Positions 4,134-48,657 of a stretch of DNA of 64,000 nt are shown piece after piece; within the stretch, counting starts at the first letter, position 1; every line of letters starts with the position of its first letter. This DNA is from an uncultured Bacilli bacterium. Lineage in GTDB: Bacteria > Bacillota_I > Bacilli_A > RF39 > UBA660. The notes beneath the pieces were generated by a model. It worked only from the letters and a program-made list of their open reading frames with translations. It searched no databases and was not told where the DNA came from. Location of the stretch: NCBI GenBank assembly GCA_934095845.1, contig CAKOKS010000003.1, forward strand, positions 5,217 through 69,216. Direction: 5' to 3'. The position numbers and the translations under genes were made by a program.

Positions 4134-5140
4134 TGAGTGAATTTAAACCTTTACCATGGTATAAAGAATTGTTTATAAAAAAATCCGAGTTACCAGAATA
4201 TTATGTTAAGAAAAGAGCTTATTTGAGTACTCATGGTGATAAGCTATCAAATTTTAAATTTCAATCTAAGTTTCATAATATTTTGATGAAAGGATTTTCA
4301 TTTAATAGAAAATATGTAGATAAACAAAATTATGCAATTATTGCTGATAAAACACATGATATAAATGGGCCTGTAATATATGCAGTAACTCATATAGGAA
4401 AGTTTGATTATCAAATTATAACAGAGGCTTTAAAAGTTCACACTATACCATTTGCAGGAGATCCAGAATTAACGTATAGGCAATTTGATGGAGCCATATT
4501 TAATTTGAATGGAGTCGTATACATAGATACAAATTCTAAAACAGACAGAAAGGTAGCATATCAAACTTCATTAGATGTATTAAGAAATGGTTATAACTTA
4601 TTAATTTTTCCAGAAGGAATATGGAATTTAAGTCCAAATAATATTGTTGAACCACTTTATCCAGGAGTTATTAATATGTCTATTGAAACTAACTCTCAAA
4701 TAGTTCCAGTCGCGATTGAACAATATGGAAGTGACTTTTTAATAAATATTGGAGAGAATTATTCAATAACTGATATAACTGACATCGATAAAAACAGATT
4801 TGAACTTAGAGATAAAATGGCAACTTTAAAATCTGAAATATTTGAAAACTATCCATCAATTCAAATAAGAGAAGAATTAGGAACATATGAAGAATTAAAA
4901 AAAGAATTTATTGAAACTAGATTAAATGAATATAAAAATCCCAAAACTAAGAAACCATATTTTACAGAAGAATTCATAGAAAATAGAGTTTATAAAGAAA
5001 AAGGAGTAACAAAACCAAAAGACGCATTCTCTTATTTTGATAATATTGAATTAAATGAAAAAACAGAATTTATGTTTCAAGAAGATGAATCTTTACCTAA
5101 AGAAATTCAAGAATCAAATGCAAATAAAATGAAAAGATAA
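4133..5140 (+). CDS. lysophospholipid (1-acyl-sn-glycerol-3-phosphate type) acyltransferase family protein
   Basis: HX4D motif (HIGKFD) plus FPEG. The ATG at 4133 overlaps the esterase stop (TAATG) and sits behind AAGGAGGA. The track start at 4127 is a TTG. Confidence 0.72.
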
Positions 5141-5151
5141 GGAGTAAAAAT

Positions 5152-6993
5152 ATGTTAGTAATATTATTACCATTTGTAGGTATATTACTTGATGCTTTAA
5201 TATTTACACTTTTTAAAAAGAAAACTCAAGTAAAAAATCGAGAAACTTTACTATATAATAAGTTAATAATTATAAACCTGTTGGAATGTATATTTAATGT
5301 TTTAGCACTGTCATATGTATTAAAAGGTGGAAATATAGCTATATTTGGATTATTTCAAAAAATAGATATATGTTTGATGGTAATATGGGTTGGTCTAATC
5401 TTAAGATATATTTATTATGTATCTGAATTAAATATTTTTACACATTTTAGATATATTATAGATTGTCTATCTTTAATATCGACTTTACTAGTTTTTTTTC
5501 TTCCAATTGAACCTATAATTAGTAATGGAGTTGTAGATTCTAGTGGTATAAGTCCAATTATAGGATTTGGAACTATACTATTATATTCGATTATGATAAT
5601 CTTATGTTTAATTTGTTCAGATATAAAAAATCCACATAATATAAAAAATAAAAAATATTATCCACTTTATGTACTAGTTATATTGGCAATTGTTGGTTTA
5701 TGTATGCGTTTAATTATACCTGAATTAATTTTTGAACCATTTATTATGTCATATGTTCTTCTAATAATGTATTTCACAATTGAAAACCCAGATGTAAAAA
5801 TGATAAGAGAATTAGAAGTGGCAAAAGATACAGCAGAAAAAGCTAACCGAGCAAAATCAGATTTCTTAAGTAGTATGTCACATGAAATAAGAACTCCATT
5901 AAATGCAATAGTTGGTTTATCAGAAGATATAACATTATATAAAGATGAAGTACCAAAAGAAGTATATGAAGATTCAATTGATATACAAAATGCATCACAT
6001 ACGCTTCTAGAAATAGTTGGAAATATACTTGATATAAATAAAATAGAATCAGATAAAATGGAAGTAATAGAAAATAAATATAATTTCAGAGAAGAAATAG
6101 AAGGAATGGTACGAGTAACAATTACGAGAATAGGAGAAAAAAATATAAATTTTCACCTATATATAGCAGAAGATATACCATATGAATTAATTGGAGATAA
6201 AGGAAAAGTAAAAGAAATAATAAATAACTTGTTAACAAATTCAATTAAATATACTGATGAGGGAGAAATAAACTTAAAAATTACTTGTGTAAATGATTTA
6301 AATAAAAATATAAGTAATTTAATAATCAGTTGCCAAGATACAGGAAAAGGAATAAAAGCAGAAAATATAAATAGATTATTTACCAAGTTTGATAGACTTG
6401 ATGTAGAAAGAAACACAACAACAGAAGGAACAGGATTAGGTCTAGCAATAACAAAAGGCTTAACTGAAATGATGGGTGGTAAAATAAATGTTCAATCACA
6501 ATATGGAAAGGGATCTATATTTATAGTAACAATACCACAAAAGATAGCTGAAGTAGAAATGCCATTAACAAATACTCAAGTAATAAATATTAAAAGAATA
6601 AATGAAGAATTAGTAGAAAGTTATAAAGGAAAAAGAGTATTAATAGTAGATGATAATAAATTAAATATAAAAGTAGCAAAAAAGGCAATAGAAAATTTTG
6701 GATTTATAATAGATGAAGCTACAGATGGAATAGAATGTTTAGAAAAAGTAAAAAATAATCCAAGATATGATTTAATACTAATGGATATAATGATGCCAAA
6801 TATGAGTGGAGAAACATGTTTAAAAAAGTTAAAGGAAGATGAAACATTTGATACACCAGTGGTAGCTTTAACTGCGGATGCAATAGCAGGATCAAAAGAA
6901 AAATATATAAGCGAAGGATTTATAGATTATATTCAAAAACCATTTTCTAGAGAGCAAATAAAAGAAAAGTTAAGTAATATTTTTAAAAAGTAA
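5152..6993 (+). CDS. hybrid sensor histidine kinase / response regulator
   Basis: Multi-TM N-terminus, H-box [11 protein letters not shown], ATPase G-boxes ([14 protein letters not shown]), and a C-terminal receiver domain (LIVDDN...LMDIMMP). Confidence 0.9.
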
Positions 6994-7008
6994 ATCATTT
7001 TTAATTTA

Positions 7009-7031
7009 AAACGAGATTTTACTCGTTTTTT
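7009..7031 (+). terminator. rho-independent terminator
   Basis: AAACGAG (7009-7015) pairs with CTCGTTT (7022-7028), followed by a T-run. Confidence 0.65.
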
Positions 7032-7032
7032 A

Positions 7033-7062
7033 TTGACTTTATTCTCTAAAACATTATACAAT
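7033..7062 (+). promoter_or_regulatory. sigma-A type promoter of the giant surface-protein gene
   Basis: TTGACT (7033-7038), 18-nt spacer, TACAAT (7057-7062). The ORF-track TTG start at 7033 is the -35 box itself. Confidence 0.5.
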
Positions 7063-7086
7063 TTTAGTATAGTAGGTGGTGCATTT

Positions 7087-10000
7087 ATGAGTACAAATAA
7101 TTTGAATGAAGATAGAAATTTCTATTTAACGTTAGAAGGACTAACATTAAAAGAAGCTGAAGAAAAATTAGAAAATAATAACATAAAAAATTATAAAATA
7201 AAAAGAAATATTGATTTATCTACAAAGAGTGGTTGCATTTCTAAAATAGATTTAGATGATACTTTAACTTTGTATGTTTCTGAAAGAAGATTTATTTTAG
7301 TACTTCTACTTCTATTTTTTTTATGTAATTTAGTAGTTTTTACCTTTAATGGAACTATATCTACTTTATTTGGAACAAAAGCACCAGTTATAAAAAGTGA
7401 AAGTCATGAATGGAGTATGAATACTTTAGTAAGTGTTAATAAAGATGCAATCATGAAAAATGAGCTTTCATATTATGAATATTGTGTAACAAAAAGCAAA
7501 AATACTTTAAAATGTAATTGGAAAAGAACAGATACTAAAAATATTCAAGTAAGTGTTACTGGAAAATGGTATGTATATTTTAGAGCCATAGATAAGAAAA
7601 ATGTAAAAAGTAAAATAAGTAATAGGGAATATGTTCAAATAGATAATGAAGCTCCTATAATAAATGATGTTTCAGAACAACTAACATTAAATTCTATCAA
7701 ATTAATTGTTAAAGCAGTTGATAATCATAGTGGCATTGATAAATATTATTATAGTTTAGACGGTATTGATTTTATTGAATCAAAAGAAGAATATGTTTTT
7801 GAAAATTTATCACCAAATACAGAATATGAAATTACTATAAAAGTGTTAGATAAACTTGGAAACACTGTTGTATATAAGAAAAAAATTAAAACAACTTCAG
7901 AATCATCTGAAGAAAATACAACAACAACTAAAAAAACAACAAAGAAGACAAATAAAAAAACAACAACTAAAAAAACTAAAACAACAAGTTTTCCTTCGAA
8001 AATAGATACACCAACTATTGATTTATTAGATGTACCTAATGTTTTAGAATACAAATCTTCATACAACTTACCTAGTCATTATTCTTTTGGTAATAGTGAT
8101 GGAACAGTAGAATGTCATTCTGGAAATCAAACTGTAACAAACACTAATGAATTATCCGTTGGTGAACATAATATAGTTTGTACAGCAACAAATAAAGAAG
8201 GTATAAGTGTTTCAGTTTCAAAGATAGTATTCGTTAGAATAACTGAATCTAATGAAGAAAATTTGGATGGTTGGGTATGGTTAAATCTATATTATCCAGA
8301 TGAATCAACAGACTGGGAATGGAAAAAGATAGATGAAAATGAAATAATGAGTGGTGACGATTTAAACTGGAATCCATATACAGGCCCAATATTAGTTAGA
8401 ATAGAAGATATAGATAAAATATATATAAGATATAAACTTAATGGTAACGAGATTATAGAATCAAAGAGTGGATATTATGTAGATATTACACCTGAAAAAA
8501 CTTCTTTACAAAATGGAGAAGAAACTAATGTAACTATCAATTATAGTAAAAACGTTGATAAAATAGAGTATCGAATTAATAATGGAAAGTGGATGGATTA
8601 TCAAGATATATTCACTGTTAGTGCTAACACATTAATTACTGCTAAAATTACATATCATGAAAATGTTTATGACAGTGAAGGAAATATATTGATAACAAAA
8701 ACTAAGACAAAACAAGTTGAAGCATATATACAAGCAACAAATGAAATAGTTGATGCAGGTAAACTAGACATAAAAATCTATCCATCATCAAAATATATTA
8801 ATAATAGCCGAAAAGTAACTGTAACTATTGATTACGATGAAGATGCAACTTCAAAATACTATCAAATAGATAATGGAGGTTGGATTCCTTATACAGGACC
8901 ATTTCAAGTAGCAAAAGAAAGTTATATTTATGCAACTGCTTCAGGTAAAAGAACAATTTATCAAAATGGTGAATTAAAAGAATTCAATGTTACTGGAAAT
9001 AAAAGTCTATTCTTAAGAGATAAATATTATGAAGTTTATATCACTTCTGGAAAAAGTCAATTAGATAGCACAGAAAAAACTTCTATTAATATTGATACAA
9101 GTTATCATGCTGATTCAGTAGAGTATTCCTTAAACGGCAGTGATTTTCAAAAATATATTGGTGACTTTAATGTTTCTGCTAATACTTTAATTACTGCTCG
9201 AGCAACATTTACATTAGATAATGGAGAAAAATTAATCGTTTATTCTAAAAAATATATTTATGAAGATAAATCATCACTTAGAGTAAGAATTAGACCTTCT
9301 AGATATTCTGTTGGTGGAAATGAAAAAACTACAATAAATATTACTACTAATTATAAAGCAGATACTATTGAATATAGTTTAGACAATGGTAAAACATATA
9401 ATAAGTACACAAAATCATTTACAGTAGAACCAAGTACATTTATTATTGCAAGATCAACTAAAAAGAATACTGATGGTTCAATACAAACAACATATGATAC
9501 AAGATACATTGAACGTGATAATGTTGGATTAGAAATAATTCCATCAGCTGAAAGAGCATTACCAAATACAAGTGTAACGGCAAAAATAATTACTTATTAT
9601 GCGGTAGATAAAATAGAATATAGCTTAGATGGAACAAATTATTATGAATATAAAGGTTCAATTTTAATACCAGCAGGTCAAACTATTTATGCTAAAGCTA
9701 CATATGGAGATAAAGTAACTTATACAAGTACATTTATTGGTGTTATAAAACCATCTGATAGTTTAGAAGGACCTAAAATAACTGGAAATCCTTCTACAAC
9801 AATTACTTCCAAAACATTAATAACAATAACTCCAAAGGAAGAAGCAGATAAAATATATTATTCAATCGATTTTGGACAATGGAAAGAATATACAGATGAA
9901 TTTTATGTTAATAAAAATGTAGTTATTCAAGCATATTATGTAAGAAAAAGTGATGGTAAAACATCTAAAACATCTTATTATTACGTTCAAAATATACATA

Positions 10001-40969: not shown

Positions 40970-41708
40970 TATATATACTGATGATGAAATTAAATTAATT
41001 AAAGAATCAGGTCATATTACATATCAAACACACCAATATTTAAAAGATTTTTTAAAACCTGGAGTAACAACTAAACATATTGATGATTTAGCTGGAGAAT
41101 TCATTAGAAGTAAAGGTGGAGTACCCAGTTGCCTTGGTTTTGAAGGATACCCTGGCAATATTTGTATATCTGTAAATGATGAAGTTGTTCATGGAATCGG
41201 TAGTGATAGAAAATTAAAAGAAGGAGACATAGTCACTTTAGATATATGTACTCTTTATAAAGGATATCATTCAGATTCAGCTTGGACTTATCCTGTAGGT
41301 AAAATAAATAAAGAAAAAGAATATTTACTTTATCATACTGAAAAATCATTATTTACTGGATTAAAAGAATTAAAGGCGGGAGTTCCACTTGGTAATGCTT
41401 CCTCTAGAATTGGTCAATATGCAAAAAAACATGGACTTGGAGTTGTACATGAATTAGTTGGACATGGTGTAGGTCATGAATTACATGAAGATCCAGATGT
41501 TCCAAATTATGGTGTATATAATACCGGTGTAAAACTTAAAGAAGGAATGGTTATCGCAGTAGAACCTATGTTAACTGCTGGAAAAAGATATGTTGTTATG
41601 TTAGATGATGATTGGACAATTGTTACAGAAGATGGTCGTCCAAGTGCACATTTTGAACATACAGTTGCTATTCGAAAAGATGGATACGAAATTCTTACAG
41701 GAGAGTGA
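40962..41708 (+). CDS. map: type I methionine aminopeptidase
   Basis: HGIGS...DIVTLD...GHGVGHELHE...EPM metal ligands. Confidence 0.95.
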   Translation: MINIYTDDEIKLIKESGHITYQTHQYLKDFLKPGVTTKHIDDLAGEFIRSKGGVPSCLGFEGYPGNICISVNDEVVHGIGSDRKLKEGDIVTLDICTLYKGYHSDSAWTYPVGKINKEKEYLLYHTEKSLFTGLKELKAGVPLGNASSRIGQYAKKHGLGVVHELVGHGVGHELHEDPDVPNYGVYNTGVKLKEGMVIAVEPMLTAGKRYVVMLDDDWTIVTEDGRPSAHFEHTVAIRKDGYEILTGE

Positions 41709-41711
41709 AAA

Positions 41712-41924
41712 ATGGCTAAAGAGCAAAAAATAGAAGTCGAAGGTAAAGTAATCGACGTAACTCATGAAATATATAAAATTGAGTTAGATAATAAGCTTAT
41801 TGTAACTGCCCGTGTTTCTGGTAAAATACGTATGAACATGATTCGTATTTTAGCAGGTGATAGAGTTACAGTAGAAATGTCACCAACTGATTTAACACAT
41901 GGGATAATAAAATACAGAAAGTAA
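41712..41924 (+). CDS. infA: translation initiation factor IF-1
   Basis: [34 protein letters not shown]. Confidence 0.95.
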
Positions 41925-41945
41925 ATAAAATATAGGAGGTTATTT

Positions 41946-42059
41946 ATGAAAGTAAGAGCATCAGTTAAAAAAATCTGTGCAAAATGCAGAATAATTAAAA
42001 GAAAAGGTAAAGTTATGGTTATTTGTGAAAATCCAAAACACAAACAAACACAAGGCTAG
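41946..42059 (+). CDS. rpmJ: 50S ribosomal protein L36 (not in the ORF track; found by hand)
   Basis: ATG 41946 to TAG 42057-42059 translates as [43 protein letters not shown] lies upstream. Confidence 0.93.
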
Positions 42060-42071
42060 GAGGAAATATAA

Positions 42072-42446
42072 ATGGCACGTATTAAAAATATAGAATTACC
42101 AAAAGATAAAGCATTATATATTGGATTAACTGCAATATATGGTGTTGGACAAAGCACTGCTAAGAAAATTTGTTCTGAAGCAAAAATTGATCCAGAAATG
42201 AAAGTTAGAGATTTAACTACTGAACAAGAAGCTTTATTAAGAACTGAAGTTGATAAATTTGTAGTTGAAGGTGAACTTCGTAGAGAAGTACAAATGAACA
42301 TAAAAAATAAAATGGAAATCAAATCTTACCAAGGTGTAAGACATATTAAAGGATTACCAGTTCATGGACAAAGCACTAGAAGTAATGCAAAAACTCGTAA
42401 AGGAAAAGGTAAAGTTGTTGCTAACAAGAAAAAAGTTGGTAAATAA
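42072..42446 (+). CDS. rpsM: 30S ribosomal protein S13
   Basis: MARI.NIELPKDK...YGVG... Confidence 0.96.
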   Translation: MARIKNIELPKDKALYIGLTAIYGVGQSTAKKICSEAKIDPEMKVRDLTTEQEALLRTEVDKFVVEGELRREVQMNIKNKMEIKSYQGVRHIKGLPVHGQSTRSNAKTRKGKGKVVANKKKVGK

Positions 42447-42464
42447 TAATTAGGAGGTATAATA

Positions 42465-42848
42465 ATGGCTTATAATAGAAGAAAAAGAAAAATTAAAAAG
42501 AATATTCCTGAAGCTCAAGCTCATATATCTTCATCTTATAATAATACATTAGTTACTATTACAGATAAAGATGGTAATACAATTAGTTGGGCATCATCTG
42601 GAACAATTGGTTACAAAGGAAGTAAAAAGAAAACTCCTTATGCTGCTGGACTTGCTGCTGAAAGTGCTGGAAAAGCTGCTATGGATGCTGGAGTTGTTAA
42701 AGTTGAAGTATTTGTTAAAGGTTTAGGTGGAGGTAGAGAAACTGCTATTCGTTCACTTCAAGCTGTTGGACTAGAAATTACTGCTATTAACGATGAAACA
42801 CCAGTACCACATAATGGTTGTAGACCACCAAAACGTCCAAGAAACTAA
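42465..42848 (+). CDS. rpsK: 30S ribosomal protein S11
   Basis: [18 protein letters not shown]...WASSG.... Confidence 0.96.
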
Positions 42849-42872
42849 TACAAAGGAAAAGAGGATTTAAAT

Positions 42873-43811
42873 ATGAATTTTGAAAAACCAGATTATAAAA
42901 TTACTGAATATGTTGAAAATAAAAATTATGGAAAATTTGAACTAGAACCACTAGAAAGAGGTTTTGGTACAACTATTGGTAATGCATTAAGAAGAGTTAT
43001 GTTATCTAGTATGCCTGGTTCGGCTGTTACTAGTGTTAAAATTGATGGAGTATTACATGAATTCCAAAAAATCGATGGTGTTAGAGAAGATGTTATGAAC
43101 ATCATTCTTAATATCAAAACTTTGGTTGTAAAAAATCATTCAACTGATAAGAAAGTAATTAGACTTTCTGCAAATAAAGAAGGAGCAGTAACAGCTGGAG
43201 AAATCGAATATGATGCTGATATCGAAATAGTAAATCCTGATTTAGTTATTTGTAATTTAGTTAAAGGTGGAAAAATTGATATTGAAATGACTGTTAACAA
43301 TGGTCGTGGATATGTTGATGCTAAAGAAAATAAAAAGATTATTGGAGATGTTGTTGGAGTTATTCCAATAGATTCAATTTATTCTCCAGTAGAAAATGTT
43401 GCATTTGAAGTTGAAAGTGCACGTGTTGGACATAATGAAAATTATGACAAGTTAATAATGTCTGTATATACTAATGGATCTATTACTCCAGAAGAATGTA
43501 TGGCATTAGCAAGTAGAATTTTAATTGAACATTTAAATATTATTACTGATTTAAATCATATTGCTGATATAACTGGAATAATTGCTGAAAAGAAAGTAGA
43601 TACAATTACTAAAACACTTGAAACTCCAATTGAAGAAATTGAATTCAGTGTAAGAGCATATAACTGCTTAAAGAGAGCAAATATTCATACAATGCAAGAT
43701 TTAATTGATAAAAAAGAAGTTGAAGTTACTAAGATTAGAAATTTAGGTAAAAAATCACTTAAAGAAGTAATCGATAAAGTAAATGAAATGGGATTAAAAT
43801 TTAAAGACTAA
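42873..43811 (+). CDS. rpoA: DNA-directed RNA polymerase subunit alpha
   Basis: GFGTTIGNALRRVMLSS... and a C-terminal domain with SVRAYNCLKRANI. Confidence 0.96.
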   Translation: MNFEKPDYKITEYVENKNYGKFELEPLERGFGTTIGNALRRVMLSSMPGSAVTSVKIDGVLHEFQKIDGVREDVMNIILNIKTLVVKNHSTDKKVIRLSANKEGAVTAGEIEYDADIEIVNPDLVICNLVKGGKIDIEMTVNNGRGYVDAKENKKIIGDVVGVIPIDSIYSPVENVAFEVESARVGHNENYDKLIMSVYTNGSITPEECMALASRILIEHLNIITDLNHIADITGIIAEKKVDTITKTLETPIEEIEFSVRAYNCLKRANIHTMQDLIDKKEVEVTKIRNLGKKSLKEVIDKVNEMGLKFKD

Positions 43812-43832
43812 ACCAAGAAGGAGGAAGCAGAA

Positions 43833-44174
43833 ATGTATAGAAAATTAGGTAGAGAATCTAGAATCAGAAGAAGTATTCTTGCTGGTCTTACTAAAGATGT
43901 AATCAATAATGGTTATGTTGTAACAACTGAAGCTAGAGCTAAAGAAGTTAGAAAATTTGTTGATAAAATGATTACTTATGGAAAAACTGGTACATTAGTT
44001 TCAAGAAGAAAAGCATTAGCTTTCTTACATAATGATGCTAAAGTAGTAAGTAAAGTATTTGATGAATTAGCACCAAAATATGCAAATAGAAATGGTGGAT
44101 ATACAAGAATCATTAAATTAAAAGAAAGAATTGGCGACGATGCCTTAACTGTTAGACTTGAATTAGTTGACTAA
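43833..44174 (+). CDS. rplQ: 50S ribosomal protein L17
   Basis: [16 protein letters not shown]...GGYTRI. Confidence 0.96.
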
Positions 44175-44189
44175 TCAAGTCTTTTTTTA
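44154..44189 (+). terminator. terminator of the alpha operon
   Basis: AGACTTGA (44154-44161) pairs with TCAAGTCT (44175-44182), followed by TTTTTTT. Confidence 0.65.
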
Positions 44190-44431
44190 TGCAATAATTT
44201 ACTTTACACAACCTAAAATAAAGTTTATATATTACAACAAAAATGTAGTATAATTAAAAATAGGATAGGTGTGTGAAATTAGGTGAAAATAAAAAAATGT
44301 AATGTAAAATAATTTAAAAGATGTGTATTTTAATAAGCAAAAATTAAAAAAATTGTGTAAGCTCCCCAAAACTCCTTGATAATCGGGGGAGGAGTATTAT
44401 AAAATAAAATAGTAGAAAGTAGGGAAATAAT

Positions 44432-45643
44432 ATGAAGAAGAAAAGTATGCTTTTAGTAGCAATATTACTAATGTCAATTGGATTTGCAGCAATCTCAACA
44501 ACATTAATAATAAACGGAACTGCTAAGGTAAGCGAAAACAATGAAGATTTTAGTGTAATCTTCACAGCTGCAAGTATAGATGGGAATGATGTATACTCAA
44601 CAGCAGTAGATGAAACAAAGAAAACAATTACATTTACAACAAGTGAATTGAAGACTTTAAATCAAACTTCAGTACTAAATTATGAAGTAACAAACAACTC
44701 AAGTAACTATGATGCAAATGTAACAGTTACATGTGTACCAAAGGAAGGAACAACAGCAAAATATACAAGTATTAAAAATAAACTTGAAAATGATGCGACA
44801 GTTGTAAAAGCAAAAAGTTCAGTAAATGGAACATTAACAGTAACATTAAACAAGACAGCTACAGAAGAAGTAAGAGAAGAGTATGTATGTACACTTACAC
44901 TTAATGCAGTAGAAAGAGATACATTGGGAGCCGAAAGTATACCAGATCCCGTATCATTTTCTGAAGATTCATGGAAAACAATACAAAAGGCAGTTCAAAC
45001 TGGAAATACAAGCAAATATAATGTAGGGGATACAAAAGAAGTAGACTTAGGTGATTTAGGAACACATACAGTAAGAGTAGCAAATAAAAGTGAATGTACA
45101 AATGGAGAAACAAGTGAAACGGCCTGTGGATTTGTAGTTGAGTTTGCAGATGTAATAACAAAAAACTCATTTAATAGTAGAGGTACAAGTGTAAGCGGAT
45201 GGAGATTTTCAAAACTACAGACATACATAAATGATACAATATATAAATCACTTCCAAGTGACTTACAAAATGTAATAACAACAACGAAAGTAATTTCCGG
45301 TCATGGAACTACACGCGGAGAAACAAATTTTGAAACGCAAGATAAACTATACTTGCTAAGTGCACATGAAGTATATGAAGATGGAACAAGTAATCCAGTA
45401 AGCTCAAGAGATACATCTTATAATAATACAAAACAATTAGATTATTATAAAAATCAAGGAGTAACAACAAGTAGTTATGCAGGAGCAATAAAACAATATA
45501 ACGGAGTTGGAACTGATTGGTGGCTTCGTTCGGCTAATTCTCTCGATGCCTACGGCTTCCTTATTGTCGACAACTACGGCAATTGGGACAGCGCCAATGC
45601 GAACCGCTCTGACGGAGTCTCTCCAGCTTTCCGAATCGCATAA
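44432..45643 (+). CDS. secreted/anchored protein with a C-terminal WWLRS...GVSPAFRI domain (DUF6273-like)
   Basis: 403 aa. N-terminal signal or anchor MKKKSMLLVAILLMSIGFAAIS, a beta-rich middle section, and the C-terminal domain. The family name is recalled from memory, not searched. Confidence 0.7.
   Translation: MKKKSMLLVAILLMSIGFAAISTTLIINGTAKVSENNEDFSVIFTAASIDGNDVYSTAVDETKKTITFTTSELKTLNQTSVLNYEVTNNSSNYDANVTVTCVPKEGTTAKYTSIKNKLENDATVVKAKSSVNGTLTVTLNKTATEEVREEYVCTLTLNAVERDTLGAESIPDPVSFSEDSWKTIQKAVQTGNTSKYNVGDTKEVDLGDLGTHTVRVANKSECTNGETSETACGFVVEFADVITKNSFNSRGTSVSGWRFSKLQTYINDTIYKSLPSDLQNVITTTKVISGHGTTRGETNFETQDKLYLLSAHEVYEDGTSNPVSSRDTSYNNTKQLDYYKNQGVTTSSYAGAIKQYNGVGTDWWLRSANSLDAYGFLIVDNYGNWDSANANRSDGVSPAFRIA
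45524..45640 (+). other. GC-rich, A-poor, NNY-codon tract: candidate DGR variable-region-like segment
   Basis: Hand count gives 65/120 G+C in 45521-45640, against about 30% immediately upstream. In 45536-45613, 24 of 26 consecutive codons are NNY. Confidence 0.45.
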
Positions 45644-45781
45644 ACAGTGCAGATATAAAAAACTGTAAAATTTGGTGTAAGTAAGTGGGGATTCACAAAC
45701 CAATCCGATAAGTTATTTATCTTTAAATCACTAATACTTTACAAAAAATAAGCTATTTCTTATAATTAAATTGGTGGTTAT

Positions 45782-46027
45782 ATGAAGAAAGATAATTTTG
45801 GTACATTAATTATATTAATTAATATAGTGCTTAGTTTATTCTTATTAACTATGAAAGAAGAGAAACTTACTTATTTTATAGTTTGTATAATATCTAATAT
45901 AATTGCTATTATATTTAGTATATTTGTATTAAAAAATCAAAATAAAAAACTAATGAATATTGTTTCATTAGTTATTAATATAATTGTTCTTATATGTGTA
46001 ATTATATATGGAATATATTTTATTTAA
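45782..46027 (+). CDS. small hydrophobic membrane protein
   Basis: 81 aa with 2-3 predicted TM helices. GGTGG lies upstream. Confidence 0.45.
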   Translation: MKKDNFGTLIILINIVLSLFLLTMKEEKLTYFIVCIISNIIAIIFSIFVLKNQNKKLMNIVSLVINIIVLICVIIYGIYFI

Positions 46028-46337: not shown

Positions 46338-47885
46338 ATGGATTTAAGTAATCAAAAACATAAACAAGATAACTTTTTCTTGTTTTTTCCAATGTATGTA
46401 TGTTTAGGTGTATATTATATACTAAGATTTTTAGCAACTCCATTTATACTTTTTTGGTCTAAAGGATCTGATACTTTATATAATACAATTAATAAAGATG
46501 TAGATACTAGTGATCTAAGAGGAGCTAATTTAGGTGATGAAAGTTCTGTACCAATTGATTCAAATTTAGTTGTAAAACATGTTAAAATTAATCCTAAATT
46601 ACTTGCTGAAAGAGAAAAACTTATTAATTCAATTGAAGCAATAGAAGAGACTAGAAGCGAAAAACCAATAACATATAGATATACAGCCTTAGATCCAGAT
46701 GGAAAACAAGTTACAAGTACTTTTTTAGCTTATTCTAAAGTAGAAGTTTATACATTCTTAGAAAATGAAGGTTATAAAGTATTTAAAATAGAAACTGGAC
46801 CATGGATTGAAAGATTTTATGGACCTAGTACTTTTTCTTCTAAAAAGATTAAAATCAAGGATATAGTATTTTGGTTACAACAACTTTCTACTTACTTAAA
46901 AGCAGGTATTCCATTAACAGATGCGATGCGTATTTTAAGTAAACAAATGGGTAGAAATGAAAACTTAAAAAGAACTTTTGATTCAATTGTTTATAATTTG
47001 ACTCTAGGAGAAAGTTTTTCATCTTGTCTTGAAAAACAAGGAGAAGCATTTCCACCTCTTTTAATTAATATGGTTAAGTCAGCTGAAGCAACAGGGGATT
47101 TGGAAGGTACACTTGATGAAATGGCTGATTACTATAAACAAACTGAAACAACAAGAAAAGAAATGGTAAGTGCTCTCACATATCCAACAATGGTATTTAT
47201 ATTCTCAATTGCAGTAATCGTATTTATCTTAGTATATTTGATTCCTCAATTTGTTAATATTTATAAAACAGCTGGAGTTAAATTAAATCCAATTACATCA
47301 TTTTTAATTGCAGCAAGTACATTCTTAAAAGCTAATTTATTCTATATACTTATTACTATTGTTATATTTGTAACAATAATATATGTATTGTATAAACATA
47401 TAAAAGCTTTTAGATACTTCTTGCAAACAGTATTTATGAAAACACCTGTTTTAGGTAAAATAATAATTTATAAAGAAATGACAATATTTACTAAAACATT
47501 TGCTAGTTTACTTAAAAACAATGTATTTATTACTGATTCAATAAGTATACTTGGTAAAATAACAAATAATGAGATTTATAAAGAAATAATGATTAATACA
47601 ATTAATTATATAGGTCGTGGAGAAAAAATATCATCAGCATTTAAAAATCACTGGGCTATACCAGAAGTTGCTTATTATATGATGGTAACAGGTGAGTCAA
47701 CTGGTGAACTTGCAGAGATGATGGAAAAAGTATCTGAATACTATGCAGAACAACATAAAGTTCTAATAGATTCAATGAAGAGTTTAATTGAACCTATATT
47801 AATAATATTCCTAGCTGTTATAGTAGGAGGAATAATTATTTCAGTTATAATTCCAATATTTAGTTTATATTCTGAAATTCTTTAG
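46338..47885 (+). CDS. type II secretion / type IV pilus platform protein (GspF/PilC/ComGB family) with an N-terminal extension
   Basis: Two T2SSF repeats. The canonical N-terminus (YRYTALDPDGKQV...) begins only near aa 105. It is preceded by a TM-containing extension. GGGAGTG lies upstream of the ATG. Confidence 0.85.
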   Translation: MDLSNQKHKQDNFFLFFPMYVCLGVYYILRFLATPFILFWSKGSDTLYNTINKDVDTSDLRGANLGDESSVPIDSNLVVKHVKINPKLLAEREKLINSIEAIEETRSEKPITYRYTALDPDGKQVTSTFLAYSKVEVYTFLENEGYKVFKIETGPWIERFYGPSTFSSKKIKIKDIVFWLQQLSTYLKAGIPLTDAMRILSKQMGRNENLKRTFDSIVYNLTLGESFSSCLEKQGEAFPPLLINMVKSAEATGDLEGTLDEMADYYKQTETTRKEMVSALTYPTMVFIFSIAVIVFILVYLIPQFVNIYKTAGVKLNPITSFLIAASTFLKANLFYILITIVIFVTIIYVLYKHIKAFRYFLQTVFMKTPVLGKIIIYKEMTIFTKTFASLLKNNVFITDSISILGKITNNEIYKEIMINTINYIGRGEKISSAFKNHWAIPEVAYYMMVTGESTGELAEMMEKVSEYYAEQHKVLIDSMKSLIEPILIIFLAVIVGGIIISVIIPIFSLYSEIL

Positions 47886-47895
47886 GAGTGAACTT

Positions 47896-48657
47896 ATGAT
47901 ACCATATATATTTCTTTTTATAGTCGGCATAATTTTTGGATCATTTTATAATGTGGTAGCTGATAGATTACCAAATAATGAATCAATAATTAAACCTAGA
48001 AGTCATTGTCCAAATTGTAATCATGTACTTAAATGGTATGAACTTATTCCACTTATATCATTTATAATACAAAGAGGAAAATGCCGTAAATGCTACTATA
48101 AAATGAGTATATGGTATTTTTTATCTGAACTTTTAACAGGGTTACTATTTTGTTTAAGTTATTATCTTTTTGGTTTTTCATATATAACTTTAGAATCAAT
48201 AGTTATAATGTCAGTTATAATTATTACAATTATAAGTGATATTAAATATATGATAATACTTGATAGTCCTTTAGTAGTTGGTACCATTTTACTAATTATA
48301 ATTGAATTATATTTTCAAGATATAAAAGTAGTTTTAACTAATTTAATTTCTGGTTTAATAATGTTTCTAATACTTTTAATAGTAAAATTTATTGGAGATA
48401 AAGTATTTAAACAAGAATCTTTAGGGTGGGGAGATGTTAAATTCTCATTCTTTGCTGGATTTGTACTTAATATACCAGTTGCCTTAATATATTTATTCTT
48501 AGCTGCTTTTCTAGCACTTCCAAATGCTTTATATCAGTCACTTAAGAAAGGCAATTCAGTTACACCTTTTGGACCATTTCTAGCTATAAGTTTATTTTTA
48601 TTATATACATATTTTAATCAAGTCAATTATCTTATAGGTATATGGTTAAATATATAA
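47896..48657 (+). CDS. A24-family prepilin peptidase (PilD/ComC)
   Basis: N-terminal CPNC...CRKC, catalytic GWGDVKF, and a second Asp-region motif, PFGPFL. Confidence 0.9.
   Translation: MIPYIFLFIVGIIFGSFYNVVADRLPNNESIIKPRSHCPNCNHVLKWYELIPLISFIIQRGKCRKCYYKMSIWYFLSELLTGLLFCLSYYLFGFSYITLESIVIMSVIIITIISDIKYMIILDSPLVVGTILLIIIELYFQDIKVVLTNLISGLIMFLILLIVKFIGDKVFKQESLGWGDVKFSFFAGFVLNIPVALIYLFLAAFLALPNALYQSLKKGNSVTPFGPFLAISLFLLYTYFNQVNYLIGIWLNI

What the first reader, a model, noticed from the sequence alone, without database searches (positions are those of the whole stretch)
45524..45643. Candidate DGR variable region at the 3' end of a secreted-protein gene, with no template repeat or RT in the window
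The last 39 codons of gene 44432-45643 encode ...WWLRSANSLDAYGFLIVDNYGNWDSANANRSDGVSPAFRIA*. They break sharply from the rest of the gene and from the whole window.

- Composition: by hand count 65 of 120 nt are G+C in 45521-45640, against about 30% in the 150 nt just upstream. Adenine falls to about 19%.
- Codons: in 45536-45613, 24 of 26 consecutive codons are NNY, and 16 of those are NNC. The run reads AAT TCT CTC GAT GCC TAC GGC TTC CTT ATT GTC GAC AAC TAC GGC AAT TGG GAC AGC GCC AAT GCG AAC CGC TCT GAC. Only TGG and GCG break the pattern.
- Residues: the 26 encoded residues contain no K, E, Q or M, although the other proteins encoded in this window are very K/E-rich.

This is the footprint expected when AAY codons of a template repeat are randomised at adenines by a diversity-generating retroelement. 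AAY becomes NNY, which cannot produce a stop and which raises GC. The tract sits where VRs normally sit, at the C-terminal end of a secreted, putatively ligand-binding domain. It is followed by a constant GC-rich end (GGAGTCTCTCCAGCTTTCCGAATCGCA).

No reverse transcriptase, Avd or TR copy is visible in these 64 kb. It would therefore be a remote target of a DGR located elsewhere, or a fossil VR. The alternative explanation is gene conversion or HGT of the 3' end from a higher-GC homologue.
Basis: partly seen in the sequence, partly recalled or inferred. Interest (0 to 1): 0.8.

Follow-up and report, generated by a model that had tools for sequence, protein, structure and literature searches.

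The report
Orphaned DGR variable region in surface-protein gene
The GC-rich tail of this gene is a genuine target site of a diversity-generating retroelement, a reverse-transcriptase system that rewrites a protein's binding surface, but this strain has lost the 2 kb machinery that sister strains carry right next to it, so the site is most likely frozen; it is a well-known kind of system.

Summary
Window 45520-45639 is the most GC-rich 120 nt of the 64 kb (55% against 27%). The 24/26 NNY run is the most extreme of 18,505 codon windows.

The tract is a DGR variable region (VR, 45525-45626) at the C-terminus of a DUF6273 domain, a published DGR target domain.

- **Homologues.** Across 55 homologues, 17 codons are hypervariable and 98% of their residues come from the NNY codon set. 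At DNA level only codon positions 1 and 2 vary.
- **The missing machinery.** It was found in a sister strain (L026, flanks 98-99% identical). An avd-like gene, the template repeat, an RT-2 RNA (Rfam RF03077) and a reverse transcriptase lie between the target gene and the next ORF.
- **Match to the template.** The window VR differs from that template at 17 of 102 positions, 16 of them template adenines (P about 7e-7).
- **Loss in the window.** About 2.15 kb is missing at 45720 to about 45755. The same arrangement occurs in another species, so this is a deletion.
- **Current activity.** The VR is identical in near-clonal contigs from at least four samples, so it is probably a frozen, orphaned VR. 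Service in trans from elsewhere in the genome is not excluded.

It is a new member of a known kind, of moderate to low interest.

The parts
44432..45643 (+). Target (variable-protein) gene, 403 aa. It has an N-terminal hydrophobic signal/anchor, a beta-rich middle part and a C-terminal DUF6273 domain.
   Evidence: ORF. Pfam DUF6273 matches aa 239-402, E 1.7e-21. 6886 homologues were found.
45146..45637 (+). DUF6273 domain (aa 239-402). This is the ligand-binding scaffold that carries the VR at its C-terminus.
   Evidence: Pfam match. Published as C-type-lectin-like with VRs at its C-terminus (PMC10743442, PMC11792537). The AlphaFold model made here was too poor to confirm the fold.
45525..45626 (+). 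Variable region proper: 102 nt homologous to the template repeat of sister strains (TTCGTTCGGCT ... GGAGTCTCTCCAG).
   Evidence: Ungapped alignment to L026 6529-6630 gives 17 differences, 16 at template adenines; P = 6.6e-7.
45536..45613 (+). The stretch holding the mutagenised codons: 17 AAY-derived codons (aa 369, 371, 372, 374, 375, 378, 380-382, 384, 386-389, 391, 392, 394), interleaved with adenine-free scaffold codons.
   Evidence: Column statistics of 15 VR DNAs. Entropy above 2.9 bits, with 98% of residues from the NNY set, in 55 proteins.
45614..45643 (+). Constant 3' end. GGAGTCTCTCCAG (45614-45626) is shared with the TR. CTTTCCGAATCGCATAA (45627-45643) is specific to the VR. The point where VR and TR diverge is where an IMH-like boundary would be expected.
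   Evidence: TR continues ATTTCTATAAAG where VR continues CTTTCCGAATCG. The end is conserved across the GC-rich VR copies of this family.
45644..45720 (+). 77-nt leader downstream of the VR. In sister strains it runs straight on into the avd-TR-RT cassette.
   Evidence: L026 5721-5829 aligns to window 45612-45720 at 92.7%. The same leader follows the VRs of L024, L017, L021, L011 and L004.
45721..45757 (.). Deletion scar. Sister strains carry about 2.15 kb here: leader hairpins, avd (179 aa), TR (102 nt), RT-2 RNA and RT (355 aa).
   Evidence: L026 5830-7998 has no counterpart in the window. Homology resumes at window 45755-45758.
45782..46027 (+). 81-aa membrane ORF, the first gene after the cassette in sister strains. 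It serves as a flank marker.
   Evidence: 100% identical protein at L026 8024-8266. Also present after the RT in L030, L033, L037 and L017.
46338..48657 (+). pilC-like (T2SSF) and prepilin peptidase genes. These are conserved right-hand context and are not shown to be functionally linked.
   Evidence: Pfam families on the identical genes of L001. Same synteny in L017, L026, L030, L033 and L036.

Best explanation
Window 45525-45626 is the variable region (VR) of a diversity-generating retroelement (DGR). It encodes the C-terminal binding surface of a secreted or surface DUF6273 protein.

In cassette-bearing relatives the proposed mechanism is the standard one:
1. A cassette directly downstream (avd, a 102-nt template repeat rich in AAY codons, an RT-2 structured RNA, and a reverse transcriptase) is transcribed.
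2. The RT, with Avd, copies the template RNA into cDNA and misreads adenines.
3. The cDNA replaces the VR.
4. As a result 17 codons are randomised at positions 1 and 2 (AAY becomes NNY), while the adenine-free scaffold codons stay fixed.

The sequence signature, the template and the cassette are shown here. The biochemical steps are inferred from established DGR knowledge (Bordetella phage BPP-1).

In the window's strain the whole 2.15-kb cassette has been deleted, between 45720 and about 45755. The VR is left in its last diversified state. It is most probably no longer being rewritten (inferred).
For: **Signature**
- The tract is the GC maximum of the window and its NNY extreme.
- The scaffold codons avoid adenine (CTT CGT TCG GCT, TTC CTT, GTC, GGC, GCG) in a 27% GC genome.

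**Family-wide hypervariation**
- In 55 homologues 75-83% identical overall, 17 C-terminal positions have entropy 2.9-3.6 bits.
- 98% of 932 residues at those positions belong to the NNY set.
- 19 of the 25 most variable positions of the protein lie in the last 43 residues.
- In 15 VR DNAs these codons vary at positions 1 and 2, while position 3 stays C or T.

**Template found**
- L026, from a human-gut contig with flanks 98.1-98.8% identical to the window, carries the template repeat 3' of the orthologous gene: TTCGTTCGGCT AAT TCT AAC AAT ACC AAC AAC TTC CTT AAT GTC AAC AAC AAC GGC AAC TGG AAC AGC AAC AAT GCG AAC AAC TCT AAC GGAGTCTCTCCAG.
- The window VR differs from it at 17 sites, 16 at template adenines.
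- The single non-adenine site is C/T polymorphic among template alleles.

**Cassette**
- The RT matches RVT_1 at 2.9e-15 and phrog_1423 at 7.7e-50. Its YMDD motif is invariant.
- The Avd-like protein is a helical bundle (pLDDT 84.7). Its best fold matches are 2gsc and 2rld, with TM 0.83-0.87 normalised to the target for 2gsc and 0.74 for 2rld.
- The RT-2 RNA (RF03077) lies between TR and RT in five cassettes.

**Positive controls**
- In the cis pairs of L024 and L017, 28/28 and 23/23 mismatches fall on template adenines.

**Deletion rather than insertion**
- The order target-avd-TR-RT-orf81-pilC is also found in another species, CAG:582 (L017, pilC 87% aa identical). It also holds for the four closest RT relatives whose loci were fetched (90-91% and 77% identical).
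- The window keeps 77 nt of the cassette leader.

**Static VR**
- The VR is identical in L001, L002 (Hadza) and L029 as well as the window. These come from different samples and all have the cassette-less junction.

**Literature**
- DUF6273 is a published DGR target domain.
Against: - The template, avd and RT come from other strains, not from the window's own genome. A template in the same genome was not, and could not be, examined.
- One VR/TR mismatch is not at an adenine.
- The RT family does not conserve the canonical DGR motif (I/L/V)GxxxSQ; it has NGAS-x. It scores below cut-off against all NCBIfam RT models.
- The Avd assignment rests on a fold match with weak E-values (0.02-0.5). There is no Pfam hit.
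- No stable hairpin follows the VR (z = 0.03), unlike the BPP-1 target site.
- The contigs with identical VRs are near-clonal (99.6-100% identical). Their identity therefore bounds the rewriting rate only loosely.
Confidence: 0.85

Rival explanations
1. The VR is a live remote target. A DGR cassette elsewhere in the same genome, for example next to a paralogue or on a prophage, still rewrites it in trans.
For: - Related genomes hold several VR-bearing paralogues at unlinked loci: four in MAG CAKOKD and three in CAG:582.
- VRs within one genome share that genome's own silent template states. L011, L016 and L021 share three such states.
- L015 in CAG:582 has 14 A-site mismatches and only one other against its genome's template.
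- Remote targets are documented for DGRs (PMC7517822, PMC8144416).
- The window VR keeps its shared ends and an intact ORF.
Against: - The four closest RT relatives whose loci were fetched (90-91% and 77% identical) sit at this very locus, which is empty in the window.
- The VR is identical in contigs from at least four samples.
- Remote VRs in CAG:582 lag behind their template's newest changes, so trans rewriting, if it occurs, is rare.
- Remnants of cassette leaders next to paralogues (L004, L011, L021) suggest that paralogues once had their own cassettes.
Confidence: 0.13
2. The GC-rich tail was acquired by recombination or HGT from a homologue in a GC-richer organism, with no retroelement involved.
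For: - There is an abrupt compositional break.
- Strains of this species do exchange segments. L029 and L002 are mosaics whose 3' gene half is 100% identical to the window.
Against: - The same GC-rich, adenine-poor scaffold occurs in the VR copies examined in these roughly 27-30% GC genomes, and in their own template repeats.
- The differences from the template are adenine-specific.
- No GC-rich donor appeared. The only high-GC hits to the 18-mer were unrelated chance matches.
Confidence: 0.01
3. Ordinary positive (diversifying) selection on a binding loop, with codon bias arising by chance.
For: Four positions just upstream of the VR (aa 359-362) also vary, although they lie outside the template.
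Against: - Selection alone does not confine change to codon positions 1 and 2 of 17 fixed codons.
- It does not exclude K, E, Q and M.
- It does not remove adenines from scaffold codons.
- It does not create a non-coding AAY-rich copy beside an RT.
Confidence: 0.01

Closest known systems
Bordetella phage BPP-1 DGR (mtd VR, avd, TR, brt), the prototype diversity-generating retroelement
   Same: - Gene order is target-avd-TR-RT.
- The VR lies at the 3' end of the target ORF.
- The template has AAY codons.
- VR/TR differences fall at template adenines.
- VR and TR share a 3' end and then diverge.
- There is a small helical accessory protein.
   Different: - It is chromosomal, in a low-GC gut Bacilli lineage, between the rplQ operon and pilC/pilD, rather than in a phage tail-fibre module.
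- The target domain is DUF6273.
- No hairpin is detectable after the VR.
- The RT lacks the conserved GxxxSQ motif.
- The cassette is absent from the window itself.
DUF6273-domain DGR targets of gut phages: Faecalibacterium prophages Lelie, CP11, Roos and Pioen (PMC11792537) and the tentaclins of nd4/nd12 (PMC10743442)
   Same: - Same Pfam domain, with the VR mapping to its C-terminus.
- The WWxRS ... G(V/Y)xx(F/C) scaffold is shared.
- A phage example was recovered here: L008, which has an avd-like gene (weak phrog match), a TR and two DUF6273 targets. Its TR is 81% identical over 73 nt to the bacterial TR.
   Different: - Here the gene is a cellular one with a signal/anchor N-terminus.
- It belongs to a family of several paralogues per genome.
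- No phage genes are nearby.
Cellular DGRs with remote variable proteins, such as cyanobacterial DGRs (PMC7517822)
   Same: - Paralogous C-terminal VRs are scattered over the genome away from the RT.
- Published criteria: mismatches at codon positions 1 and 2, and more than 80% of mismatches at template adenines. Both are met here (94%).
   Different: In the window the cognate cassette is not merely distant. It has been deleted from its ancestral adjacent site, and several sister cassettes show decay: avd nonsense or frameshift mutations, or stubs.
Rfam RF03077, RT-2 RNA motif
   Same: Full-length matches above the gathering score (45-74 bits against 40) lie between TR and RT in L026, L017, L024, L030 and L031.
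   Different: It is absent from the window. Its role here is inferred only from its position, which corresponds to the spacer RNA that primes cDNA synthesis in BPP-1.

Membership tests
Diversity-generating retroelement (DGR) target / variable region | A near-repeat pair (VR in an ORF, TR non-coding) whose mismatches fall overwhelmingly (>80%) on TR adenines. | tested here: met
   16 of 17 mismatches (94%) over 102 nt fall on TR adenines against the TR of sister strain L026/L030; P = 6.6e-7. The TR comes from another strain of the same species (flanks 98-99% identical), not from the window's genome.
Diversity-generating retroelement (DGR) target / variable region | The VR lies at the 3' end of the target ORF, and variation is confined to codon positions 1 and 2 of AAY-derived codons. 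| tested here: met
   The VR ends 17 nt before the stop codon. Seventeen codons vary at positions 1 and 2 with position 3 staying C or T in 15 VR DNAs. 98% of residues are from the NNY set in 55 proteins.
Diversity-generating retroelement (DGR) target / variable region | A reverse transcriptase gene and TR in the same genome, usually within a few kb. | tested here: not met
   Within the 64-kb window there is no RT, Avd, TR or RT-2 RNA. The rest of the genome could not be searched. Sister strains L026, L030, L033 and L036 and the species CAG:582 have them directly downstream.
Diversity-generating retroelement (DGR) target / variable region | Ongoing diversification: the VR differs between or within populations of the same strain. 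| tested here: not met
   The VR is identical in the window, L001, L002 (two Hadza samples) and L029. All are cassette-less and 99.6-100% identical, or mosaic, elsewhere. Read-level data were not available.
Diversity-generating retroelement (DGR) target / variable region | The target domain has a C-type-lectin-like fold that displays the VR. | tested here: inconclusive
Diversity-generating retroelement (DGR) target / variable region | IMH-type 3' boundary and a downstream hairpin/cruciform, as in BPP-1. | tested here: inconclusive
   VR and TR share GGAGTCTCTCCAG and then diverge (CTTTCCG against ATTTCTA). No stable DNA hairpin is found in 45600-45730 (z = 0.03).
DGR reverse transcriptase (sister-strain cassette) | An RT domain with a catalytic YxDD motif and the DGR-typical (I/L/V)GxxxSQ motif. 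| tested here: inconclusive
   RVT_1 at 2.9e-15 and phrog_1423 at 7.7e-50; YMDD is invariant. The motif reads Y-D-N-G-A-S-x, and Q is not conserved. The best NCBIfam hit is the group II intron RT, far below its cut-off.
Avd accessory protein (sister-strain cassette) | A small, basic four-helix-bundle protein encoded between target and TR. | tested here: inconclusive
   A 179-aa ORF sits in the right place. There is no Pfam or NCBIfam hit. It matches phrog_30516, as does, weakly (E 0.004), the avd-like ORF of phage L008. The AF2 model has pLDDT 84.7 and is all-helical. The top Foldseek hits are 2gsc and 2rld; I recall these as members of the Avd-related 23S rRNA IVS protein family (PF05635), which was not checked here. 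TM normalised to the target is 0.83-0.87 for 2gsc and 0.74 for 2rld, but E is only 0.02-0.5.

The most novel reading that the evidence does not exclude
The orphaned VR might still be rewritten by a retroelement that is not its own. Candidates are an unlinked cassette in the same genome, or a DGR on an infecting phage. The phage DGR recovered here (L008) has a TR 81% identical over 73 nt to the bacterial TR, and one of its target VRs shares the WWLRSA-encoding 18-mer TGGTGGCTTCGTTCGGCT with the window VR, so a phage could in principle edit a host surface protein. Related to this, the lineage may be a natural series of DGR decay: intact cassettes, avd nonsense mutations, stubs and clean deletions. 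Such a series could show how hypervariable surface proteins become fixed.
Probability: 0.1. Interest if true: 0.6.

Novelty: new member of a known kind. Interest (0 to 1): 0.35.

Why it matters
- **The method works.** A purely compositional footprint (a GC spike, an NNY run and adenine-free scaffold codons in an AT-rich genome) correctly flags a DGR target even when the RT and template are absent. DGR surveys that start from the RT miss such cases (PMC8144416 says so explicitly).
- **A cellular DGR family.** The work documents a chromosomal DGR family in small-genome, uncultured human-gut Bacilli (CAG:582 and relatives, including Hadza MAGs). It diversifies a multi-copy family of DUF6273 surface proteins.
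- **A link for an RNA motif.** The Rfam RT-2 RNA motif is tied to the TR-RT spacer of these DGRs.
- **Strain-level polymorphism.** Cassettes are intact, decaying or deleted in different strains. This would allow a direct comparison of strains with variable and fixed surface proteins in gut metagenomes.

None of this changes what is known about how DGRs work.

Tried and rejected
**Scans that did not find the template**
- Searches for a TR inside the window found nothing (blastn-short, low-stringency blastn, and a scan counting only non-adenine mismatches).
- The TR-specific pattern AAYAAYTCTAAYGGRGTYTCTCCAGCTTTCCG found nothing in viral contigs.
- AAYAAYTCNAAYGGNGTYTCTCCAGC found nothing in GTDB genomes. 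Both patterns ran past the true homology end: the TR reads ...CCAGA where the VR reads ...CCAGC.
- The 5' anchor TGGTGGCTTCGTTCGGCTNNTTCT found 15 VRs in GTDB genomes but no TR. The TR homology starts only at TTCGTTCGGCT.
- The mid-VR pattern found nothing in viral contigs. The same pattern found the TR in metagenome contigs.

**Other dead ends**
- The 18-mer alone in viral contigs gave three chance hits in high-GC contigs and one real phage DGR, L008.
- The AlphaFold model of the target was too poor over the VR domain for a fold search (pLDDT 55, below 50 over residues 288-396).
- The DNA downstream of the VR folds no better than shuffled sequence. The candidate stem ACAGT/ACTGT is not maintained across paralogues, so no cruciform is claimed.
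- PDB sequence search with the RT gave only retron and group II intron RTs.
- P0005 (95% identical protein, identical VR) at first looked like a VR conserved across diverged lineages. It is in fact a recombinant or mosaic contig whose 3' 1 kb is 100% identical to the window.
- HGT from a GC-rich donor and plain positive selection were considered and rejected; see the rival explanations.
Full report
**1.

Gene 44432-45643 (+) encodes a 403-aa protein. Its last 120 nt are 54% G+C and 19% A, against 30% GC in the 150 nt upstream. The 120-nt window 45520-45639 (55% GC) is the GC maximum of the whole 64 kb, whose mean is 26.8%.

In 45536-45613, 24 of 26 codons are NNY and 16 are NNC. This is the most extreme of 18,505 in-frame 26-codon windows in all ORFs of the window. 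The rest of the gene has 38% NNY and 7% NNC. The scaffold codons in the tract avoid adenine (CTT CGT TCG GCT, TTC CTT, GTC, GGC, GCG), which is unusual for a 27% GC genome.

The window holds no second copy of the tract, even when only non-adenine mismatches are counted. It has no reverse transcriptase and no Avd, and no RT-2 RNA.

**2. What the gene is**

Residues 239-402 match Pfam DUF6273 (E 1.7e-21). Two papers describe DUF6273 as a domain of DGR target proteins in gut phages. Its fold is reported as C-type-lectin-like, and the variable regions map to its C-terminus (PMC10743442 and PMC11792537).

The AlphaFold model made here was too poor over this domain to test the fold (pLDDT below 50 for residues 288-396). 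The N-terminus is a hydrophobic signal or anchor, followed by a beta-rich region.

**3. Homologues show the DGR pattern**

The protein has thousands of homologues in gut metagenomes (6886 hits). The best 120 end in a constant scaffold, WWLRSAxSxxTxxFLxVxxxGxWxxxxAxxSxGVSPAFRIA, with the x positions hypervariable.

In an alignment of 55 of these homologues (75-83% identical to the query):
- 17 positions in the tail have entropy of 2.9-3.6 bits, against a mean of 0.54 bits for residues 1-360.
- 19 of the 25 most variable positions of the protein lie in the last 43 residues.
- 98% of the 932 residues at the 17 positions belong to the 15 amino acids that NNY codons can encode.

At DNA level, in 15 VR copies from different loci and genomes, these codons vary freely at positions 1 and 2. 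Adenine is the commonest base there, and position 3 stays C or T. The scaffold codons are invariant. Silent states are genome-specific (for example GGC...GGA against GGT...GGG), which implies that each genome has or had its own template.

**4. Finding the template and the machinery**

Three pattern scans failed for reasons understood afterwards (see the section on what was tried). A pattern built from the inferred template (TTCCTTAAYGTCAAYARYAAYGGYAAYTGG) hit three metagenome contigs.

L026 is a 60.8-kb human-gut contig syntenic with the window. Its flanks are 98.8% identical on the left and 98.1% on the right. Its gene order is:
- secY-adk-map-infA-rpsM-rpsK-rpoA-rplQ
- the DUF6273 target gene
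- a 179-aa avd-like ORF
- the template repeat (6529-6630)
- a structured RNA
- a 355-aa reverse transcriptase (6914-7981)
- the same 81-aa ORF and pilC as in the window

The template reads TTCGTTCGGCT AAT TCT AAC AAT ACC AAC AAC TTC CTT AAT GTC AAC AAC AAC GGC AAC TGG AAC AGC AAC AAT GCG AAC AAC TCT AAC GGAGTCTCTCCAG.

Against window 45525-45626 there are 17 differences in 102 nt. Sixteen are at template adenines, and the template has 36 adenines, giving a binomial P of 6.6e-7. The one exception is the third base of codon 384 (template C, window T). That site is C/T polymorphic among template alleles; the templates of L017 and L033 have T. After ...CTCCAG the VR continues CTTTCCGAATCGCATAA and the template continues ATTTCTATAAAG.

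**5. The cassette components**

- **RT.** It matches RVT_1 (2.9e-15) and PHROG 1423, 'Reverse transcriptase' (7.7e-50). YMDD is invariant in 21 relatives. The DGR-typical GxxxSQ motif is not conserved; the family has NGAS-x.
- **Avd-like protein.** It has no Pfam or NCBIfam hit. It shares phrog_30516, weakly (E 0.004), with the avd-like ORF of a phage DGR. It is modelled with confidence as a helical bundle (pLDDT 84.7). Its best structural matches are 2gsc and 2rld. TM normalised to the target is 0.83-0.87 for 2gsc and 0.74 for 2rld, with probability 0.99-1.0 but E only 0.02-0.5. From memory, not checked here, these two belong to the 23S rRNA IVS protein family (PF05635), to which Avd is related.
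- **Structured RNA.** Between template and RT lies a full-length match to Rfam RF03077, RT-2 RNA. It is present in all five cassettes examined (45-74 bits against a gathering score of 40).
- **Positive controls.** In L024 and L017, every VR/TR mismatch is at a template adenine (28/28 and 23/23, including the boundary base).

**6. The window's strain has lost the cassette**

L026 positions 5830-7998 (about 2.15 kb) have no counterpart in the window. This stretch holds the leader hairpins, avd, TR, RT-2 RNA and RT. Homology stops at window 45720 and resumes at 45755-45758.

Three observations show that the cassette is ancestral at this site:
- The same order (target-avd-TR-RT-orf81-pilC-pilD) occurs in a different species, Firmicutes bacterium CAG:582 (L017, pilC 87% aa identical).
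- The four closest RT relatives whose loci were fetched (90-91% and 77% identical) sit at this locus (L030, L033, L036, L037).
- The window still carries 77 nt of the leader that elsewhere continues into the cassette.

The event is therefore a deletion, not an insertion in the others.

Decay is common in the lineage:
- avd has a nonsense codon in L026 (E25*) and in L030, and a frameshift in L033.
- Only a stub of avd is left in L021.
- Leader remnants flank cassette-less paralogues in L003, L004 and L011.
- L026's own VR has lost 39 nt.

Some of these lesions could be assembly errors.

**7. Frozen or served in trans?**

The exact protein and VR recur on contigs from at least four samples. These are L001 (100% identical over 21 kb), L002 from Hadza samples (99.6%) and the mosaic L029. 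All have the cassette-less junction. That argues against ongoing rewriting. Because the contigs are near-clonal, however, it only bounds the rate.

Related genomes hold several unlinked VR paralogues. Remote targets are an established DGR feature. In CAG:582, though, the remote VRs have not picked up their template's newest changes, while the cis VR has. I put about 0.7 on a frozen orphan and about 0.15-0.2 on a live remote target. The rest of the genome could not be searched with the tools available.

**8. Comparison and verdict**

This is a standard DGR in architecture and mutational signature (prototype: Bordetella phage BPP-1). It has a target domain already linked to DGRs in gut phages. 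The particular features are:
- the cellular, non-phage setting in small-genome uncultured gut Bacilli;
- the multi-copy target family;
- the RT-2 RNA in the spacer position;
- the strain-level presence, decay or absence of the cassette.

Novelty: a new member of a known kind. Interest: 0.35.

Noticed in passing
L026 6691-6894; also L017 6264-6468 (-), L024 3748-3952, L030 919-1122, L031 9797-9988: The Rfam RT-2 RNA motif (RF03077) lies between the template repeat and the RT gene in every cassette examined. This is the position of the spacer RNA that primes cDNA synthesis in the BPP-1 DGR. It suggests that RT-2 is the DGR spacer RNA of this RT clade.
   Followed up: partly
L026 5817-5940 (also L024, L017, L021, L011, L004); the window keeps only the first arm, up to 45720: A conserved, GC-rich element sits between the VR and avd. 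It consists of an 11-nt inverted repeat (GTTATTTATAC ... GTATAAATAAC) around GTAGGCGCACTACGAGCAAYGCGAGTAAAGCCA. A perfect 13-bp hairpin follows (GTTCCAATTACTT-TTTAT-AAGTAATTGGAAC), just before the avd ribosome-binding site. Its function is unknown. The window's deletion breakpoint falls inside the first arm.
   Followed up: no
L026 6020-6022; L030 avd; L033 avd 3' end; L021 5620-6013: avd is damaged in several strains: E25* in L026, a stop near codon 142 in L030, a frameshift in L033, and a stub without TR or RT in L021. L026's own VR also lacks 39 nt. This points to recurrent decay of the cassette in this lineage, although some lesions could be assembly errors in A-rich runs.
   Followed up: partly
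L008 (IMGVR_UViG_3300045988_120858) 471-581, 622-1119, 1258-2340, 5108-5833: A 144-kb phage contig (locus GC 30.5%) carries an avd-like ORF (weak phrog_30516 match, E 0.004), a TR and two DUF6273 target genes with VRs. Its TR is 81% identical over 73 nt to the bacterial TR. One of its target VRs also shares the 18-mer TGGTGGCTTCGTTCGGCT, which hints at a common origin of the phage and chromosomal systems.
   Followed up: partly
L031 7789-8916: In a more distant cassette (RT 54% identical) the DGR target combines a prepilin-type N-terminal methylation domain (PF07963) with DUF6273, which suggests a DGR-diversified pilin-like protein. In the window the target gene sits next to pilC and the prepilin peptidase, but its own N-terminus lacks the G/FxxxE prepilin motif.
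   Followed up: no
L006 8244-10136 (P0001); L012 458-3127: Some homologues (630-638 aa) carry two tandem DUF6273 modules, each ending in a VR-like tract (L006 9325-9423 and 10018-10122). L012 holds three to four tandem modules or paralogues.
   Followed up: no
window 45506-45517 (aa 359-362, VGTD): The four residues just upstream of WWLRSA are also variable among homologues (entropy 2.0-2.9 bits, mostly S/N/D/Y/G). They lie outside the TR homology of the L026-type template, and their DNA is AT-rich. The cause was not determined; possibilities are older or longer templates, such as the L027 variant that includes TGGTGG, or ordinary selection.
   Followed up: no
window 41500-44800 against L029; window 42500-43500 against L002: Sharp mosaic identity between strains: 100% identical blocks next to 5-15% diverged blocks, including the 5' third of the target gene. 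This indicates frequent homologous recombination in this species, or chimeric metagenome assemblies.
   Followed up: partly
L027 (OKVP01029473.1), last ~35 nt: The contig ends in Illumina adapter sequence (AGATCGGAAGAGCACACGTCTGAACTCCAGTCAC), directly after a partial TR variant. The public assembly contains untrimmed adapter.
   Followed up: no
L018 (CP091739.1, 1.53-Mb MAG chromosome), L013, L019, L025: More distant family members keep the 18-mer TGGTGGCTTCGTTCGGCT exactly, but their tails are AT-richer and contain K, E and M codons. These may be never-diversified or long-decayed versions of the domain.
   Followed up: no
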